Counted from the stretch's first letter, positions 1,767 to 24,747 are shown. The stretch: 52,641 nucleotides of DNA from a virus (IMGVR_UViG_3300025701_001373:1-52641); one strand, 5' to 3'. Translations and numbers: made by a program. The notes: generated by a model from the sequence alone, not told the origin.

Positions 1767-2570
1767 ATGTACGATATACAAAGAGAACTCAACAAGTACT
1801 TTAGTAAAGAAGTACACCATAGAACATTAGATAAATACTGGTATGGAGTAGATTCTAAAAAGAACTTTGATAGACAGGTTAAGACTCAATATAGTGAACT
1901 AAAAGAATATATAACAATACCAATAACTTATACTTGGAACAGAGATAAATTTAGATCAAACTTTGAATTCACGCCAAATAAAGATTTAAAGGTTGATATA
2001 TACTTAGGATGTTCTCACACTATGGGTACAGGACACTATTGGGAAAATACCTGGCCTTACCATGTATCAAAATATACCGGTAATGAAATAGTCAATTTAG
2101 GTGTAGGAGGGAAAGGAATAGAGTTATCATTTATAAACCTAGCTAAGTACATAAAATACTTCAATGTTCAAAACATCTTTCACTTCCAGCCAATATACGC
2201 TAGGTACAATTTTCCTTACAAAGGAGAAATAGGAAGCGTATTAGTACAGAATGTAGATTTAAATAACGGAGAAGAGGATTACGTACCTTGGCGAAAAAAG
2301 TACATAAAAGAAGAATTACTAAACGATGACTATATTGTATATAATCACTATAAACATACATTAAGTATACAAGGCTTATGTAATACGTACAGTATACCGT
2401 ATTACCATATGTATAAACTGCCCGATACAAGAGATGATAAAAGTACGCTAAAGGCAAGGGACTTAGTACACTATAACTCTACACAATTGAAAGCCATTGC
2501 TAACGAGTTTTTATCTAAGATGAACACTACAAATGGGTACAATCAAATACTAGATGATCTAAAATGGTAA
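1767..2570 (+). CDS. SGNH/GDSL-like hydrolase or acyltransferase
   Basis: Block I-like LGCSHTMG, block II-like NLGVGG, C-terminal DLVH (DxxH). Confidence 0.6.
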   Translation: MYDIQRELNKYFSKEVHHRTLDKYWYGVDSKKNFDRQVKTQYSELKEYITIPITYTWNRDKFRSNFEFTPNKDLKVDIYLGCSHTMGTGHYWENTWPYHVSKYTGNEIVNLGVGGKGIELSFINLAKYIKYFNVQNIFHFQPIYARYNFPYKGEIGSVLVQNVDLNNGEEDYVPWRKKYIKEELLNDDYIVYNHYKHTLSIQGLCNTYSIPYYHMYKLPDTRDDKSTLKARDLVHYNSTQLKAIANEFLSKMNTTNGYNQILDDLKW

Positions 2571-3022
2571 ATATACATAAAAACTTCCTTACAGAGAGTG
2601 AATGTACAGCCCTTCTTAAAGTGGCTATAGATAAATTTGAAATTGATAGACGTACTTATTCTGGCTGGAGCTGTAGAGTTAATAGAAGTTTAGAGTTTGA
2701 GAATAGAATTAAGAATATACTAACCAATATATCCCCATATGAATCTTTTCATATTAGTTGGATAAATTTAACTGAATACAAACAAGGAAGTTCATTAGAA
2801 CTCCATAAAGACGAAAGGAGTAATTTTACTTTTACTATACCGTTAACAAGTAAGTACCAAGGAGGAGATTTTCTAATAGAAGGTAGTATATATAAGTTAA
2901 ATTTAGGTGACTGTATAGCGTTTACTGGAGGAGAATTAGAACACGGAGTTACAGAAGTTAGAGATGGATATAGAGCATCTCTTAATATATGGATAAAACA
3001 AGGAAATAAAAAAGTGATATGA
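2564..3022 (+). CDS. 2OG-Fe(II) oxygenase (prolyl-4-hydroxylase-like)
   Basis: HKD...YQGGDF...HGVTEVRDGYR: HxD...H triad plus 2OG-binding Arg. Confidence 0.85.
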   Translation: MVNIHKNFLTESECTALLKVAIDKFEIDRRTYSGWSCRVNRSLEFENRIKNILTNISPYESFHISWINLTEYKQGSSLELHKDERSNFTFTIPLTSKYQGGDFLIEGSIYKLNLGDCIAFTGGELEHGVTEVRDGYRASLNIWIKQGNKKVI

Positions 3023-3432
3023 ACTCGGAAAAATATACAAAAGGAGTAATAGCAGGTAACTTTGATGTAATGCATCCAGGCTATATTAAAATGTTTAAAG
3101 AAGCTGCTGCCAATTGTGACTGTCTTGTAGTCTTACTACACACAGACCCTTCTATTGAACGTCCTCATAAACTTAAACCTATCCTGTCAGTTGATGAACG
3201 AAGAGAGATGTTGTTTGAACTTAAATCTATATGTGACATAATTACATACACGTACGAAGAACAGCTCTTAGACTTATTAAAACTAGGGGAGTTTAATGTA
3301 AGATTTCTTGGAGATGATTACAAAGGTAAACCTTTTACTGGAGACGTTTTGAATATACCTATTTATTATTTGAATAGAGATCACGGATGGTCTACGACTA
3401 AGTTCAAAAGGATGATTGCAAAAACAGTATGA
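3019..3432 (+). CDS. Cytidylyltransferase (TagD/RfaE-like HxGH superfamily)
   Basis: AGNFDVMHPGY (HxGH variant), KPILSVDERREML, GDDY, RDHGWSTT. Confidence 0.8.
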   Translation: MNSEKYTKGVIAGNFDVMHPGYIKMFKEAAANCDCLVVLLHTDPSIERPHKLKPILSVDERREMLFELKSICDIITYTYEEQLLDLLKLGEFNVRFLGDDYKGKPFTGDVLNIPIYYLNRDHGWSTTKFKRMIAKTV

Positions 3433-3950
3433 TAACTCAAAAGAAAATTTTTACTGTAGAAGAGTGTCGGTACATACTAAATCAAATATATACCCAACCT
3501 CTAAAATCTCCCCATACTACATCTTTGCAAGAAAGTTACCGATTTAAAGGAGCTAATATAAAATACTTAAATGTTAATATCTACAATCCCGATTACAGTA
3601 AAATATTAACTCTATTAGAAGATAGGTTGAGAGAATTTGGAGTAGTAAAAATTCCACCTACTATAGATTTATTAGAATACACTGTAGGTAGTTCCCAAAA
3701 GGAACATAGAGATGATTACCGTTCAGTTAAGAGAGGGAGATCTATATCTATCATGTTATCAGAAGAGGAGGACTACGAAGGAGGTAATTTAATTATAGAG
3801 GATTCAATAGCGTCCAAAGAGATAGGGACTTTAATATTCTTCCCTTCTGATAAACTCCATTCAGTATCTAAAGTTACTTCTGGTAAACGATTAGTCTTAG
3901 TCATGTTTCTTAGGCAAGAAAATTTACATATTAAAAGTGGATTAATTTAA
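3429..3950 (+). CDS. 2OG-Fe(II) oxygenase (PKHD/P4H-like)
   Basis: HRD...DYEGGNL...FPSDKLHSVSKVTSGKR. Confidence 0.85.
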   Translation: MITQKKIFTVEECRYILNQIYTQPLKSPHTTSLQESYRFKGANIKYLNVNIYNPDYSKILTLLEDRLREFGVVKIPPTIDLLEYTVGSSQKEHRDDYRSVKRGRSISIMLSEEEDYEGGNLIIEDSIASKEIGTLIFFPSDKLHSVSKVTSGKRLVLVMFLRQENLHIKSGLI

Positions 3951-3980
3951 AACTTCTTCTTATATTACATAACACACCTA

Positions 3981-3988
3981 TATTTATA
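3981..3988 (+). promoter_or_regulatory. Putative late promoter TATTTATA (degenerate early motif just upstream, 3936-3967)
   Basis: Same octamer recurs upstream of structural genes (28009, 30399, 38791). Confidence 0.5.
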
Positions 3989-22980: not shown

Positions 22981-23600
22981 ATGATTGAAGTATTATTAGT
23001 AATTTTATCTAAAATATACTTATACATATCTTCATGACCTTTCCAAGACCAGTGTAGATTCTGGGTTTTTCCGTTAGTAGCCTCGGTTATTGTTTCGAAT
23101 TTACTAGCTGGATACCAAAAATCAGTATGTTTCCAGTAGTATGTACGTACTTTTCTCCTATTTAACTCTTTTAAGAGTTTTTCTACCATATTTTGATAAA
23201 AGTTTAAATAAAATTCTTCTTTAGGCAGTATTTCGTGGTATATGTAATCAAGTATGTACCTTGAATTGCCTTGTTTATAATTAAAGTACGGGTCGTTAAT
23301 AGTATTAACTCTCTCGCCCGCTTCGTTAAAGTTATGTATTCGTACAGGTCTAGTATCGCTAATAATAACTATATCGTTAGATTTAATACTTTCAAGGTTA
23401 TTAATGAGAGAGTTGATGATCCCTATATTAGATTCTCCACCGTTTGCGGTATTGCGTTCAATTAATTTAAGTTCGGATGAAAGCTTAGTAGTCCATCTGA
23501 GTTTAGGTTTATTGTAATCTAATTGAAAATAGTCATCATCTGGATGACATCCATTACCTCTTGTAAAAGAGTCTCCAAAAAACCAACAACTATTTTTCAT
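22977..23600 (-). CDS. SGNH/GDSL-like hydrolase
   Basis: FFGDSFTRG, NTANGGESN, LHWSWKGHE. Confidence 0.72.
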   Translation of the reverse strand: MKNSCWFFGDSFTRGNGCHPDDDYFQLDYNKPKLRWTTKLSSELKLIERNTANGGESNIGIINSLINNLESIKSNDIVIISDTRPVRIHNFNEAGERVNTINDPYFNYKQGNSRYILDYIYHEILPKEEFYLNFYQNMVEKLLKELNRRKVRTYYWKHTDFWYPASKFETITEATNGKTQNLHWSWKGHEDMYKYILDKITNNTSII

Positions 23601-23650
23601 AATGTCAATGAACTCTGTGTTTTATATGTGGATCCCTTTATGGGTACGTA

Positions 23651-23809
23651 TTAATCTACGGTCTGTTTCTGTAATTCCTCCCAGGCTCTTTCGTAAACCT
23701 CCTGTAATGACAATTTAGTAGGTAGTTTACGTAGTTCTCCTACTTGGTATAAGAGTTTTAACCTTAATCCTCTATCTTCTGCTTCTAATACTATCTCTTC
23801 TATTGCCAT
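23651..23809 (-). CDS. Small hypothetical protein
   Basis: Probable start at ATG 23809 (MAIEEIVLEAEDRGLR...). Confidence 0.55.
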   Translation of the reverse strand: MAIEEIVLEAEDRGLRLKLLYQVGELRKLPTKLSLQEVYERAWEELQKQTVD

Positions 23810-23943
23810 CTTATATACAAGATACGATTTATATCTCAGTATGCCAACTGTTTTTATAAGAAACTTGAGGAAATTTTTCGGCAAAATTTTTAGGTATATA
23901 GGGGTGTTATAGTCTATTTATAGTAAATTAATAAACAATAGGA

Positions 23944-24747
23944 ATGTTATACGTATTTGGAGATAGTTATCCGGCAGGAGTATGTGAGAAAAAAGAAGAT
24001 AAAGCTTATTATATTGAGAAAGCTTTCCCGGAGTTACTAAGTGCTACTCTCAAAATACCGGTATATAAAGAGGCATTTGGAGGTGCTTCTTGTATGGATA
24101 CTATAAATGCATTGACTTCTAATATTCATAAGTTTAAAAAAGGAGATATAGTAATACTAGCGTTACCTCATTTTGATAGAATAAATCTCCCGGCAAATGC
24201 ATATGCTAACTCAGCAGGTGCAGTTGTAGATAGGAGAAGAAGAGAGGGGGAGCCTAAGCGGAAAACTTTAGTCGGAGTACCGTTATATAATGCGGGGCTT
24301 CAGATACTTTCCGGTGATTATGAGGGAGCTGCTTGGTTTATAAAATTCCTTAAAACAGCGTTGACTCCGGAAGTCTACGGAGGAACAGAAAAAGGGTTTA
24401 AGTATTTTTTAAACTCACTAATAAAGGTTCATGTTGATTTGGGGTATGGGGCGTATGAAAACTATTCTAACTATTACATAGATTGGGCTACTAACCTCTC
24501 GACTTATTTCATAGAGAAGGATATAAACTACATTGTTTACACTTCTCACTGGTGGGCATATATAAAAAAGTTTGTAGCTAGTAGTTGTGAGTGTGGACAC
24601 TGGGATGAAAGGGGACATACTTTGTTTAGTTCTTATTTAGAGGAGTTTTTAAAATCTTATAAACACGGGAATTTTCTAATGTTGCCTCCTGATATATCCT
24701 CTGTTCAGGAAAGGTACTTACTAGGAAATGGACCAAAGCAAATATAG
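23944..24747 (+). CDS. SGNH/GDSL-like hydrolase
   Basis: VFGDSYPAG, AFGGAS, GHWDERGH; TATTTATA at 23915-23922 upstream. Confidence 0.68.
   Translation: MLYVFGDSYPAGVCEKKEDKAYYIEKAFPELLSATLKIPVYKEAFGGASCMDTINALTSNIHKFKKGDIVILALPHFDRINLPANAYANSAGAVVDRRRREGEPKRKTLVGVPLYNAGLQILSGDYEGAAWFIKFLKTALTPEVYGGTEKGFKYFLNSLIKVHVDLGYGAYENYSNYYIDWATNLSTYFIEKDINYIVYTSHWWAYIKKFVASSCECGHWDERGHTLFSSYLEEFLKSYKHGNFLMLPPDISSVQERYLLGNGPKQI

What the first reader, a model, noticed from the sequence alone, without database searches (positions are those of the whole stretch)
2564..24747. Shared C-terminal tail on nearly all modification enzymes, candidate docking or targeting tag
Seen: all seven 2OG oxygenases end in Ile after a short basic/polar tail: GNKKVI (2564), IKSGLI (3429), YRKTVI (6386), IKKDFI (6910), KSNTLI (12709), SKSSII (22009), VSRAAI (22504). 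Unrelated folds end similarly: SGNH NNTSII (22977), SGNH GPKQI (23944), GNAT PNSIL (12197). Among the other genes called here I see only one more ending in Ile (43291). These genes are on both strands and in separate loci. Several tails fit the PDZ class I pattern S/T-x-hydrophobic-COOH. Inference: a common C-terminal signal recruits interchangeable enzymes to one scaffold or assembly site, or acts as a degron.
Basis: partly seen in the sequence, partly recalled or inferred. Interest (0 to 1): 0.8.

Follow-up and report, generated by a model that had tools for sequence, protein, structure and literature searches.

The report
Shared C-terminal tag on phage enzymes
Many unrelated accessory enzymes of this uncultured marine phage and its relatives end in the same short tail, a few polar or basic residues followed by two bulky aliphatic residues, which looks like a common address or turnover label whose reader is still unknown.

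Summary
All 7 oxygenase paralogues end in Ile, against 3 of 70 other genes.

Ile itself is not the conserved feature. The conserved feature is a polar or Lys-rich linker followed by [LIVF][IL] and then the stop codon.

It is not explained by paralogy alone. The ending [LIVFM][LI] is kept in:
- 104 of 150 cluster representatives of the oxygenase subfamily
- 23 of 25 homologues of the SGNH-like protein 22977
- 43 of 58 homologues of an unrelated radical SAM family
- 142 of 432 genes (33%) lying within 3 kb of those radical SAM genes in 80 viral loci, against 5% expected

Two control phage regions show no excess: 3 of 86 and 2 of 62 genes.

Codon use, downstream DNA and gene spacing do not explain the tail.

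Inside the window, outside the oxygenases and the two SGNH-like genes, only 2 of 67 genes carry it: the GNAT and a small hydrophobic protein. I judge the endings QI (23944) and DI (43291) to be chance.

Function is untested. My reading is a tag read in trans: docking or sorting about 0.4, degron about 0.25. I found no published description.

The parts
2564..3022 (+). 2OG-Fe(II) oxygenase paralogue (152 aa) ending GNKKVI. The tail codons are 3002-3019. The TGA stop overlaps the next start (ATGA).
   Evidence: PF13640 at 31.4 bits against a cut-off of 27; tail read; HxD...H motif in alignment A1.
3429..3950 (+). 2OG-Fe(II) oxygenase paralogue (173 aa) ending IKSGLI. The tail codons are 3930-3947. 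The next gene starts 65 nt downstream.
   Evidence: PF13640 at 37.4 bits.
6386..6913 (+). 2OG-Fe(II) oxygenase paralogue (175 aa) ending YRKTVI. The orthologue in relatives ends TKKSLL.
   Evidence: PF13640 at 39.5 bits.
6910..7419 (+). 2OG-Fe(II) oxygenase paralogue (169 aa) ending IKKDFI. The orthologue ends NPKTLL. This is the protein that was modelled.
   Evidence: PF13640 at 43.3 bits. AlphaFold2 mean pLDDT 92.6; residues 161-169 average 81; the last 7 residues are coil.
12197..12712 (+). GNAT acetyltransferase (171 aa) ending NPNSIL. The same hexapeptide ends several SGNH-family homologues.
   Evidence: Pfam Acetyltransf_10, _7 and _1 all above cut-off. The orthologue ends SPKSIL. P0166, P0167, P0168 and P0170 end ENPNSIL.
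12709..13230 (+). 2OG-Fe(II) oxygenase paralogue (173 aa) ending KSNTLI. The orthologue ends KDSTLI.
   Evidence: PF13640 at 37.7 bits. KSNTLI also ends the SGNH-family proteins P0161 and P0172.
22009..22437 (-). Divergent 2OG oxygenase paralogue (142 aa) ending SKSSII. The orthologue ends STISII.
   Evidence: No Pfam hit. hhalign against the family profile gives 95.3% probability, E = 2.3e-8. HxD...H motif in A1.
22504..22980 (-). Divergent 2OG oxygenase paralogue (158 aa) ending VSRAAI. It is a loose fit to the tail pattern, with Ala at P-1.
   Evidence: hhalign probability 92.7%; phrog_2954 and phrog_81; no Arg aligned at the family's conserved Arg column.
22977..23600 (-). SGNH/GDSL-like hydrolase (207 aa) ending NNTSII. 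The tail is a short polar linker after the last helix.
   Evidence: 23 of 25 family members end [LIVFM][LI]. AlphaFold2 mean pLDDT 88.8; residues 201-207 average 67 and are coil. Pfam GDSL score is below cut-off.
23944..24747 (+). Second SGNH-like protein (267 aa) ending GPKQI. I judge it not to carry the tag, because P-1 is Gln.
   Evidence: Only its N-terminal 76 residues resemble the 22977 protein. It has no homologue other than itself.
4016..6220 (+). Tail-less 734-aa protein inside the enzyme island: a conserved N-terminal domain of about 460 aa followed by two tandem Hint (bacterial intein-like) domains. This is context, not part of the tag.
   Evidence: Pfam PT-HINT and Intein_splicing. 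The best solved match is a bacterial intein-like domain, 2lwy. The family lies within or next to runs of tailed genes in W, G005 and G008.

Best explanation
Shown: the tails are a real short linear motif selected at the protein level. The motif is a flexible polar or Lys/Asn/Ser/Thr-rich linker, then two aliphatic residues ([LIVF][IL]), then the free carboxyl end. It sits on a cohort of unrelated accessory enzymes: P4H-like 2OG oxygenases, SGNH-like hydrolases, a GNAT, radical SAM enzymes, DUF6071, DUF6734 and many families with no name. These genes lie in operon-like islands of an uncultured group of AT-rich marine myoviruses.

Inferred: such a tail, kept on many folds while its exact letters drift, is read in trans by one common partner with a pocket for a hydrophobic C-terminus. 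I commit to recruitment or sorting as the most likely use. The tag would bring enzymes that are encoded together to one site or hub, much as PTS1 or encapsulin cargo peptides do.

The hub is not identified. Untested candidates are the tail-less Hint-family protein in the islands, the phage Hsp20 encoded beside the islands, the procapsid interior and the replisome clamp.
For: (1) Deep conservation on three unrelated folds.
- Oxygenase subfamily: 104 of 150 representatives end [LIVFM][LI], and 122 of 150 end in L, I, V, F or M.
- SGNH-like family: 23 of 25.
- Radical SAM family: 43 of 58 unique homologues.

(2) Cohort marking.
- 142 of 432 unique neighbour ORFs carry the tail, against a 5.0% frequency of the same dipeptide inside proteins.
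- 96 of 155 neighbours of 150-249 aa carry it.
- 12 of 14 consecutive genes carry it in G008 at 40.8-51.4 kb.
- Whole contigs: G005 29/182 (P = 1e-9) and G008 24/177 (P = 2e-6). The excess survives removal of the oxygenase and SGNH families: 21/172 and 19/172.
- The shifted control at positions -4 and -3 stays near background.

(3) Controls without excess: Flavobacterium phage immuto 3/86 and cyanophage S-CAM7 2/62.

(4) Selection on the protein, not the DNA.
- Ile and Leu codons at the tail roughly follow genome-wide use.
- Identical tail peptides have different codons and different downstream DNA.
- The tail persists whatever the distance to the next gene: oxygenases 12/14 with a gap over 20 nt or no next gene, radical SAM 13/16 with a gap over 20 nt.

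(5) Behaviour typical of a short linear motif.
- In 5 orthologue pairs between the window and G002, the last 6 residues are only 47% identical while the bodies are 68% identical. All 5 keep two aliphatic end residues.
- The SGNH linker varies in length by 0-5 residues.
- The tails are coil with lower model confidence than the enzyme body.
- No solved relative covers the oxygenase tail; the best matched stretches reach at most position 162 of 170.

(6) The SGNH family is essentially viral: 1 weak hit in the scan of one genome for each of 185,579 species.
Against: - No reader was found. There is no PDZ_2 or PDZ_6 domain in 5 related contigs, though all are 43-76% complete.
- In the oxygenases the tail has a fixed length: 66 of 104 have exactly 19 residues after G-x-R. 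The model places it with a mean pLDDT of 81. That also fits a tail that packs on its own enzyme.
- Within the window itself, genes outside the oxygenase and SGNH families show no excess (2 of 67).
- Tails are most frequent where the stop overlaps the next start: ATGA overlaps 40/84 against 87/708 elsewhere. Starts in these phages prefer T at position -1. So a translational-coupling constraint contributes to the counts.
- My gene calls come from a simple greedy ORF picker, not a trained gene finder.
- The contigs and loci were reached through tail-bearing genes, so they are not a random sample of phages.
Confidence: 0.4

Rival explanations
1. Turnover tag. The tail is a C-terminal degron read by a host AAA+ protease, of the ClpX type exemplified by the MuA end RRKKAI. 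It would give the accessory enzymes a short, timed life or hand them to an unfoldase.
For: - The tail resembles the MuA ClpX signal: basic residues followed by an aliphatic end finishing in Ile. This signal is listed in Table 1 of PMC8138137; I saw passages only.
- Lys or Arg lies within positions -3 to -6 in 83% of oxygenase tails and 57% of SGNH tails.
- A universal host reader would explain why the tag occurs in several contigs whose shared proteins are only 23-40% identical and why no reader turned up in the phage contigs.
- The tails are flexible.
Against: - P-1 here is a bulky Leu, Ile, Val or Phe, not the Ala of LAA or KKAI.
- Keeping a destabilising tag on most members of many enzyme families, and on 62% of mid-sized island genes, is unusual for degrons. 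From my own knowledge, degrons usually mark regulators.
- No degradation data exist, and the host is unknown.
Confidence: 0.25
2. Role in cis. The two aliphatic end residues fold back onto each enzyme. They might act as a lid over the active site, a hydrophobic staple or a shield against exopeptidases. The different folds would have reached the same solution independently.
For: - The oxygenase tail has a fixed length (19 residues after G-x-R in 66 of 104) and a further conserved [ND]-[FLI] position.
- The model places it with a mean pLDDT of 81.
- From my own recollection, PHD2-type oxygenases use their C-terminal segment near the substrate site. This comes from no call.
Against: - The same tail would have to arise independently on more than 10 unrelated families (10 of 36 clusters with 3 or more members; 25 of 144 multi-member clusters).
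- The SGNH linker varies in length and its tail averages only pLDDT 67.
- The letters turn over quickly between close orthologues.
- The control phages, one of similar base composition (GC 0.34) and one richer in GC (0.42), lack the excess.
Confidence: 0.15
3. Constraint at the nucleotide level. The end of each gene doubles as the translation start region of the next. That region is A-rich, lacks a Shine-Dalgarno sequence and prefers T at -1. With ATGA overlaps this forces NTA last codons, which encode Ile, Leu or Val.
For: - Only 15-18% of starts have a Shine-Dalgarno-like sequence. Upstream regions are mostly about 40-65% A, and T sits at -1 in 56-62% of starts.
- Tails occur in 40 of 84 ATGA-overlap genes against 87 of 708 others, and in 49 of 71 against 30-33% in the second data set.
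Against: - By my estimate from the frequencies, the overlap class should reach only about 15%, not 48%.
- The tail is kept without any overlap: oxygenases 12/14 and radical SAM 13/16. Four of the window's seven oxygenases have gaps of 61-78 nt.
- The excess remains in every spacing class.
- Immuto, probably with a similar type of host, shows no excess.
Confidence: 0.07
4. Chance plus paralogy. The seven oxygenases inherited one ending and the remaining cases are coincidence.
For: - The oxygenases are paralogues.
- The window's other genes show no excess of Ile ends (3 of 70) or of the two-aliphatic ending (2 of 67).
Against: - The tail is conserved in homologues of unrelated families, and one third of the genes near the radical SAM genes carry it.
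- The terminal Ile is one of only 8 invariant columns among paralogues that are 18-27% identical to the first sequence.
Confidence: 0.03

Closest known systems
ClpX recognition signal of the MuA type (C-terminal RRKKAI)
   Same: It sits at the extreme C-terminus. Basic residues are followed by an aliphatic end finishing in Ile. It is portable between unrelated proteins. See PMC8138137 Table 1 (passages seen).
   Different: P-1 here is Leu, Ile, Val or Phe rather than Ala. The tag marks whole enzyme families and gene islands. Dependence on ClpX is untested.
Cohort sorting signals with a free C-terminus: peroxisomal PTS1 (SKL-COOH) and encapsulin cargo-loading peptides (both recalled, from no call)
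   Same: A few C-terminal residues, shared by many unrelated enzymes of a pathway, send them to one place.
   Different: The sequence differs: PTS1 has a basic P-1, and encapsulin peptides are Gly/Ser-rich and longer. No compartment or receptor is known here, and the setting is a phage.
PDZ class I ligands ([ST]-x-hydrophobic-COOH)
   Same: The last residue is hydrophobic. Ser/Thr at P-2 occurs in 60% of oxygenase tails and 48% of SGNH tails.
   Different: Across one representative per family, Ser/Thr at P-2 falls to about 25%. P-1 is the most constrained position after P0. No PDZ_2 or PDZ_6 domain was found in 5 related contigs.
Sliding-clamp binding tails (bacterial QL[SD]LF, T4-type polymerase ends; consensus recalled)
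   Same: A short hydrophobic C-terminal peptide lets many different enzymes share one ring.
   Different: The tails have no conserved Gln and no aromatic end. The cyanophage S-CAM7 polymerase ends TLESFFG and the G006 polymerase ends YATHTDI, neither like the tag. No clamp gene was available for testing (one search was uninformative).
PKHD/PiuC and prolyl 4-hydroxylase type 2OG oxygenases (PF13640)
   Same: The fold and the HxD...H...R catalytic core match.
   Different: Solved relatives have other C-terminal ends or extra domains. None covers the last 8 or more positions of the profile.

Membership tests
2OG-Fe(II) oxygenase, P4H/PiuC-like (Pfam PF13640) | HxD...H iron-binding triad | tested here: met
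   H81, D83 and H127 are invariant in all 7 paralogues.
2OG-Fe(II) oxygenase, P4H/PiuC-like (Pfam PF13640) | Profile score above the curated cut-off | tested here: met
   5 of 7 score 31.4-43.3 bits against a cut-off of 27. The other 2 have no Pfam hit but match the family profile by hhalign at 95.3% and 92.7%.
2OG-Fe(II) oxygenase, P4H/PiuC-like (Pfam PF13640) | Conserved Arg after the distal His (binds the 2OG C5 carboxylate) | tested here: inconclusive
   It aligns in 6 of 7 paralogues. The 22504 protein has no Arg in that column.
2OG-Fe(II) oxygenase, P4H/PiuC-like (Pfam PF13640) | Double-stranded beta-helix fold | tested here: met
   The AlphaFold2 model has pLDDT 92.6. Foldseek top hits are PiuC 9ghl, viral P4H 5c5t, P4H 4j25 and PHD2, with E about 1e-8 and TM 0.53-0.63 normalised to the query.
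SGNH/GDSL hydrolase | Block I GDS motif and a C-terminal catalytic His block; profile above cut-off | tested here: inconclusive
   FGDS is invariant at the N-terminus and H183/H189 are invariant. The Pfam scores of 16.9 and 13.8 bits are below the cut-offs of 23.6 and 32.9.
GNAT acetyltransferase | Profile above the curated cut-off | tested here: met
   Acetyltransf_10 at 39.4 bits (cut-off 23.6), Acetyltransf_7 at 38.3 (27) and Acetyltransf_1 at 32.4 (20.7).
ClpX C-terminal degron, MuA type | Extreme C-terminal position with basic residues upstream of an aliphatic end | tested here: met
   The stop codon follows the two aliphatic residues directly. Lys/Arg lies within -3 to -6 in 83% (oxygenase) and 57% (SGNH) of tails.
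ClpX C-terminal degron, MuA type | ClpX-dependent recognition or degradation | not testable with these tools
   This needs half-life or binding assays, and the host is unknown.
PDZ class I ligand | Ser/Thr at P-2 and a hydrophobic P0 | tested here: inconclusive
   Ser/Thr at P-2: 60% (oxygenase), 48% (SGNH), about 25% across one representative per family.
PDZ class I ligand | A PDZ domain reader in the same system | tested here: not met
   PDZ_2 and PDZ_6 gave 0 matches in 5 related contigs, while the controls matched in 14 of 14 genomes. The contigs are 43-76% complete and host proteins were not examined.
Encapsulin-type or capsid cargo tag | Tagged proteins found inside the particle | not testable with these tools
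   This needs virion proteomics of a cultured relative.

The most novel reading that the evidence does not exclude
These uncultured marine phages use a C-terminal 'zip code', roughly [KR]-[KN]-[ST]-aliphatic-[IL]-COOH. It gathers a whole set of radical SAM, 2OG oxygenase, esterase and acyltransferase enzymes at one hub, forming a virus-made modification factory. The hub could be the phage Hsp20 oligomer, the Hint-family protein, the procapsid or the replisome. This would be a viral, prokaryotic counterpart of PTS1-type cohort sorting, and new enzymes could join simply by acquiring the tail.
Probability: 0.25. Interest if true: 0.88.

Novelty: new variant of a known kind. Interest (0 to 1): 0.72.

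Why it matters
If the tail is a common address or turnover label, it groups dozens of phage enzyme families of unknown role into one functional set. The tail alone would predict which genes work together.

The islands lie beside 7-deazaguanine genes (QueC) and radical SAM cassettes. A paper on pelagimyophages described radical SAM cassettes as variable parts of host-recognition islands (PMC7029224, passages seen). 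The tag may therefore bear on how marine phages modify DNA, virions or host surfaces.

Four literature searches found no description of such a shared tail.

Tried and rejected
- Co-folding. The 4016 protein's N-terminal domain (residues 1-461, alignment A5) was folded with the 6910 oxygenase (alignment A3). The score was 0.00 against a mark of 0.32, the controls were not run, and the tool gave no verdict. This is no evidence either way.
- Searches for a reader or hub in related contigs. PDZ_2 and PDZ_6 gave none in 5 contigs. The PP-binding carrier domain gave none above cut-off in the 4 contigs searched; L037 was not held. The T4 clamp family PF02916 matched nothing anywhere, including the control genomes, so that search is uninformative. 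A family B polymerase was found only in G006, and it ends YATHTDI.
- The N-terminal domain of the 4016 protein. No Pfam, PHROG or solved-structure match lies outside the Hint part. The protein atlas returned only viral Hint-protein clusters.
- Cultured relatives. No cultured phage carries a close tailed oxygenase: in 22 of the 24 tblastn records the match ends at query residue 156-157 of 169 and in none does it reach the last residue, and the S-CAM7 oxygenase ends HGPELR.
- Source names. Cluster look-ups gave only metagenome sources and no organism.
- Word-index homologue searches. These found only 1 relative of the 6910 oxygenase and none of the 23944 protein.
- Calls that failed.
- Ideas set aside. 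A structural beta-strand was rejected because the last 7 residues are coil. A shared DNA junction or cassette end was rejected. AT-richness alone was rejected because immuto (GC 0.34), matched to the window in GC (0.34), shows no excess; the S-CAM7 region (GC 0.42) shows none either.

Full report
**What the window is.**
The window is a whole IMG/VR viral record of 52,641 bases, estimated to be 32% complete, with about 32-34% G+C. Its structural half resembles Flavobacterium phage immuto: 68% nucleotide identity over 54% of an 8-kb stretch. Gene starts have an A-rich leader, show a Shine-Dalgarno-like sequence in only 15-18% of cases, and have T at position -1 in about 60%. From my own knowledge this suggests a Bacteroidota host. 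The host is not established.

**Checking the observation.**
- From the 132 ORFs I kept 77 that are not nested in or antisense to longer ORFs and do not run off the window's ends.
- All the quoted C-termini are present.
- Ten of the 77 end in Ile: all 7 oxygenases, the two SGNH-like genes and gene 43291.
- Ile is 6.7% of residues. The 70 non-oxygenase genes show no excess (3 seen, 4.7 expected). The 7/7 against 3/70 contrast gives P = 5e-8, but the seven are paralogues.
- They are indeed oxygenases. Five pass the PF13640 cut-off. All align with HxD...H. The two without a Pfam hit match the family profile by hhalign at 95.3% and 92.7%.
- The terminal Ile is one of only 8 invariant columns among paralogues that are 18-27% identical to the first sequence.

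**What is conserved is not Ile.**
- In contigs about 80-85% identical in DNA (L001-L005, G002), the orthologues end KKSLL, PKTLL, KTCLI, DSTLI, TISII and KKQII.
- A profile search over 1.84 billion cluster representatives found 13,564 relatives at E of 0.001 or better. Among the best 150, the last residue is I in 73, L in 39, F in 7 and V in 3. The penultimate residue is L in 62, I in 44, F in 12 and V in 9.
- 104 of the 150 end [LIVFM][LI]. Among those 104, Ser/Thr occupies the third-last position in 60%, Lys/Arg lies within -3 to -6 in 83%, and 66 have exactly 19 residues after the G-x-R of the last core strand.
- Members without the tail end like ordinary PiuC/P4H proteins (...GxxF[RK]) or in ...NLR....

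**It crosses folds.**
- The SGNH-like protein 22977 has 24 relatives at 30-65% identity. With the query included, 23 of 25 end [LIVFM][LI], after a polar linker whose length varies by 0-5 residues.
- Some of these relatives end KSNTLI, the exact end of the window's oxygenase 12709. Others end NPNSIL, the exact end of the window's GNAT. Where such identical tails could be compared as DNA, the codons and the downstream sequence differ.
- A third unrelated family, a radical SAM enzyme found next to these genes, was traced to 80 viral loci. 43 of its 58 unique homologues end [LIVFM][LI]; the last residue is I in 38 and L in 10.
- Within 3 kb of those genes, 142 of 432 unique ORFs (32.9%) carry the ending. 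The same dipeptide occurs at 5.0% inside proteins. Among ORFs of 150-249 aa the figure is 96 of 155.
- In that data set, 10 of 36 clusters with at least 3 members have the tail in at least half their members: oxygenase-like 41/45, a 191-aa family 17/18, SGNH-like 17/17. Hsp20 has 0/13.
- In the first data set (the contigs above plus the 27 loci around SGNH homologues), 25 of 144 multi-member clusters do.
- Pfam names tailed proteins as radical SAM (four kinds, one with a B12 domain), further 2OG oxygenases, DUF6071, DUF6734 and a glycosyltransferase. Most have no name.

**Whole contigs and controls (my greedy ORF picker).**

| Region | Genes with tail | P |
|---|---|---|
| Window | 9/76 | 0.003 |
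| G002 | 14/152 | 0.007 |
| G005 | 29/182 | 1e-9 |
| G008 | 24/177 | 2e-6 |
| G006 | 7/120 | not significant |
| Immuto, first 50 kb | 3/86 | not significant |
| S-CAM7, 40 kb | 2/62 | not significant |

- With its annotated genes, S-CAM7 gives 2/58.
- The same pattern shifted two residues inward stays near background in every case.

After removing the oxygenase and SGNH families:

| Region | Genes with tail | P |
|---|---|---|
| G005 | 21/172 | 1.5e-5 |
| G008 | 19/172 | 3.5e-4 |
| Window | 2/67 | not significant |
| G002 | 9/147 | not significant |

- So inside the window itself the tag is carried by the oxygenases, SGNH 22977 and the GNAT.
- The second hit among the 67 is a small hydrophobic protein (20160), probably a coincidence.
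- In G008, 12 of 14 consecutive genes at 40.8-51.4 kb are tailed.

**DNA-level explanations.**
- Tails are most frequent where the stop overlaps the next start as ATGA: 40/84 against 87/708 elsewhere, and 49/71 in the second data set.
- The preference for T at -1 before starts forces NTA last codons in such overlaps, so coupling adds to the counts.
- It cannot be the cause. Families keep the tail without any overlap: oxygenases 12/14 and radical SAM 13/16. Four of the window's seven oxygenases have gaps of 61-78 nt. Every spacing class is above expectation. Ile and Leu codons at the tail roughly follow genome-wide use.

**Structure.**
- The 6910 oxygenase model is confident (pLDDT 92.6). Its last 9 residues average 81 and the last 7 are coil.
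- The SGNH-like model (88.8) ends in a helix followed by a 6-7 residue coil that averages 67.
- The fold matches PiuC, viral and bacterial P4H and PHD2. No solved relative aligns beyond profile position 162 of 170.
- Between the window and G002, the five tailed orthologue pairs are 68% identical overall but 47% in the last six residues. All five keep two aliphatic end residues. The 36 untailed pairs are 81% and 76% identical.
- A pattern that stays while the letters change quickly is typical of a short linear motif.

**What it does.**
- Nothing here measures function. I favour a tag read in trans, because one simple pattern that needs the chain end is kept on many folds, in genes encoded together.
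- I rank recruitment or sorting (about 0.4) above a degron (about 0.25). The tag marks most members of whole enzyme families and most mid-sized genes of an island, as cohort sorting signals do.
- The likeness to the MuA ClpX signal RRKKAI (PMC8138137, passages), together with the lack of any phage-encoded reader, keeps the degron alive.
- A cis role (about 0.15) is favoured by the fixed tail length in the oxygenases.
- Candidate hubs seen in the islands are a tail-less protein family with a conserved N-terminal domain and Hint domains (window 4016), and a phage Hsp20. Hsp20 is present in 4 of 5 related contigs and lies next to the islands in G005 and G008.

**Literature.**
- Four searches found no report of a shared C-terminal tail on phage accessory enzymes.
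- The pelagimyophage paper PMC7029224 (passages only) mentions radical SAM cassettes in a hypervariable host-recognition island. It contains no occurrence of 'C-terminal'.
Gene tables there could hold related families.

Noticed in passing
window 4016-6220: A 734-aa protein with a conserved N-terminal domain of about 460 aa of unknown fold (invariant E22, N24, T25, R108, D112, K123 and others), followed by two tandem bacterial-intein-like Hint domains. Each Hint domain starts with Cys, has a TxxH block and ends in HN followed by Tyr or Lys, so I expect cleavage rather than splicing. The family lies within or next to runs of tailed genes in W, G005 and G008. The G008 and L037 versions lack the Hint part and end in a Cys-rich stretch.
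   Followed up: partly
window 611-1762: An FG-GAP repeat protein with a lipoprotein signal peptide (MKKYLVSVLGLVLLVGC). It is probably exported to the host envelope. A homologue lies in the G005 island.
   Followed up: partly
window 7686-8675: A thymidylate synthase family protein of 329 aa against a 266-position profile, so it carries insertions. It could be a nucleotide hydroxymethylase rather than ThyA. Not examined.
   Followed up: no
window-wide and related contigs: Gene starts lack Shine-Dalgarno sequences (15-18% SD-like). Their leaders are A-rich and T sits at -1 in 56-62%. From my own knowledge this resembles Bacteroidota-type initiation.
   Followed up: partly
window 3019-3432: A cytidylyltransferase-like protein between two tailed oxygenases ends AKTV. 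Its homologues end GNTV or AKTV. This is a conserved ending but not the two-aliphatic tail.
   Followed up: no
G008 contig 40.3-51.4 kb (L062, L035): An Hsp20 gene is followed by 14 genes, 12 of them tailed. They include two radical SAM enzymes (one with a B12 domain), 2OG oxygenases and an SGNH-like protein. The two exceptions are the Hint-family homologue and a protein ending KKTLM.
   Followed up: partly
L069 (rSAM locus) 1721-5518: QueC, an APS-kinase-like protein and a cytidylyltransferase-like protein flank the radical SAM gene and lack tails. Immuto carries a full 7-deazaguanine DNA modification set. The islands may therefore relate to DNA hypermodification.
   Followed up: no
window 20160-20363: A 67-aa very hydrophobic protein ending LMIIL. 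It matches the two-aliphatic pattern but is probably a membrane peptide.
   Followed up: no
G006 contig 129.8-138.8 kb (L025): This contig is estimated at 44% complete, so the genome may be about 330 kb. It shows no overall excess of tails but has three tailed genes close together: DUF6071, an unnamed 489-aa protein and DUF6734.
   Followed up: partly
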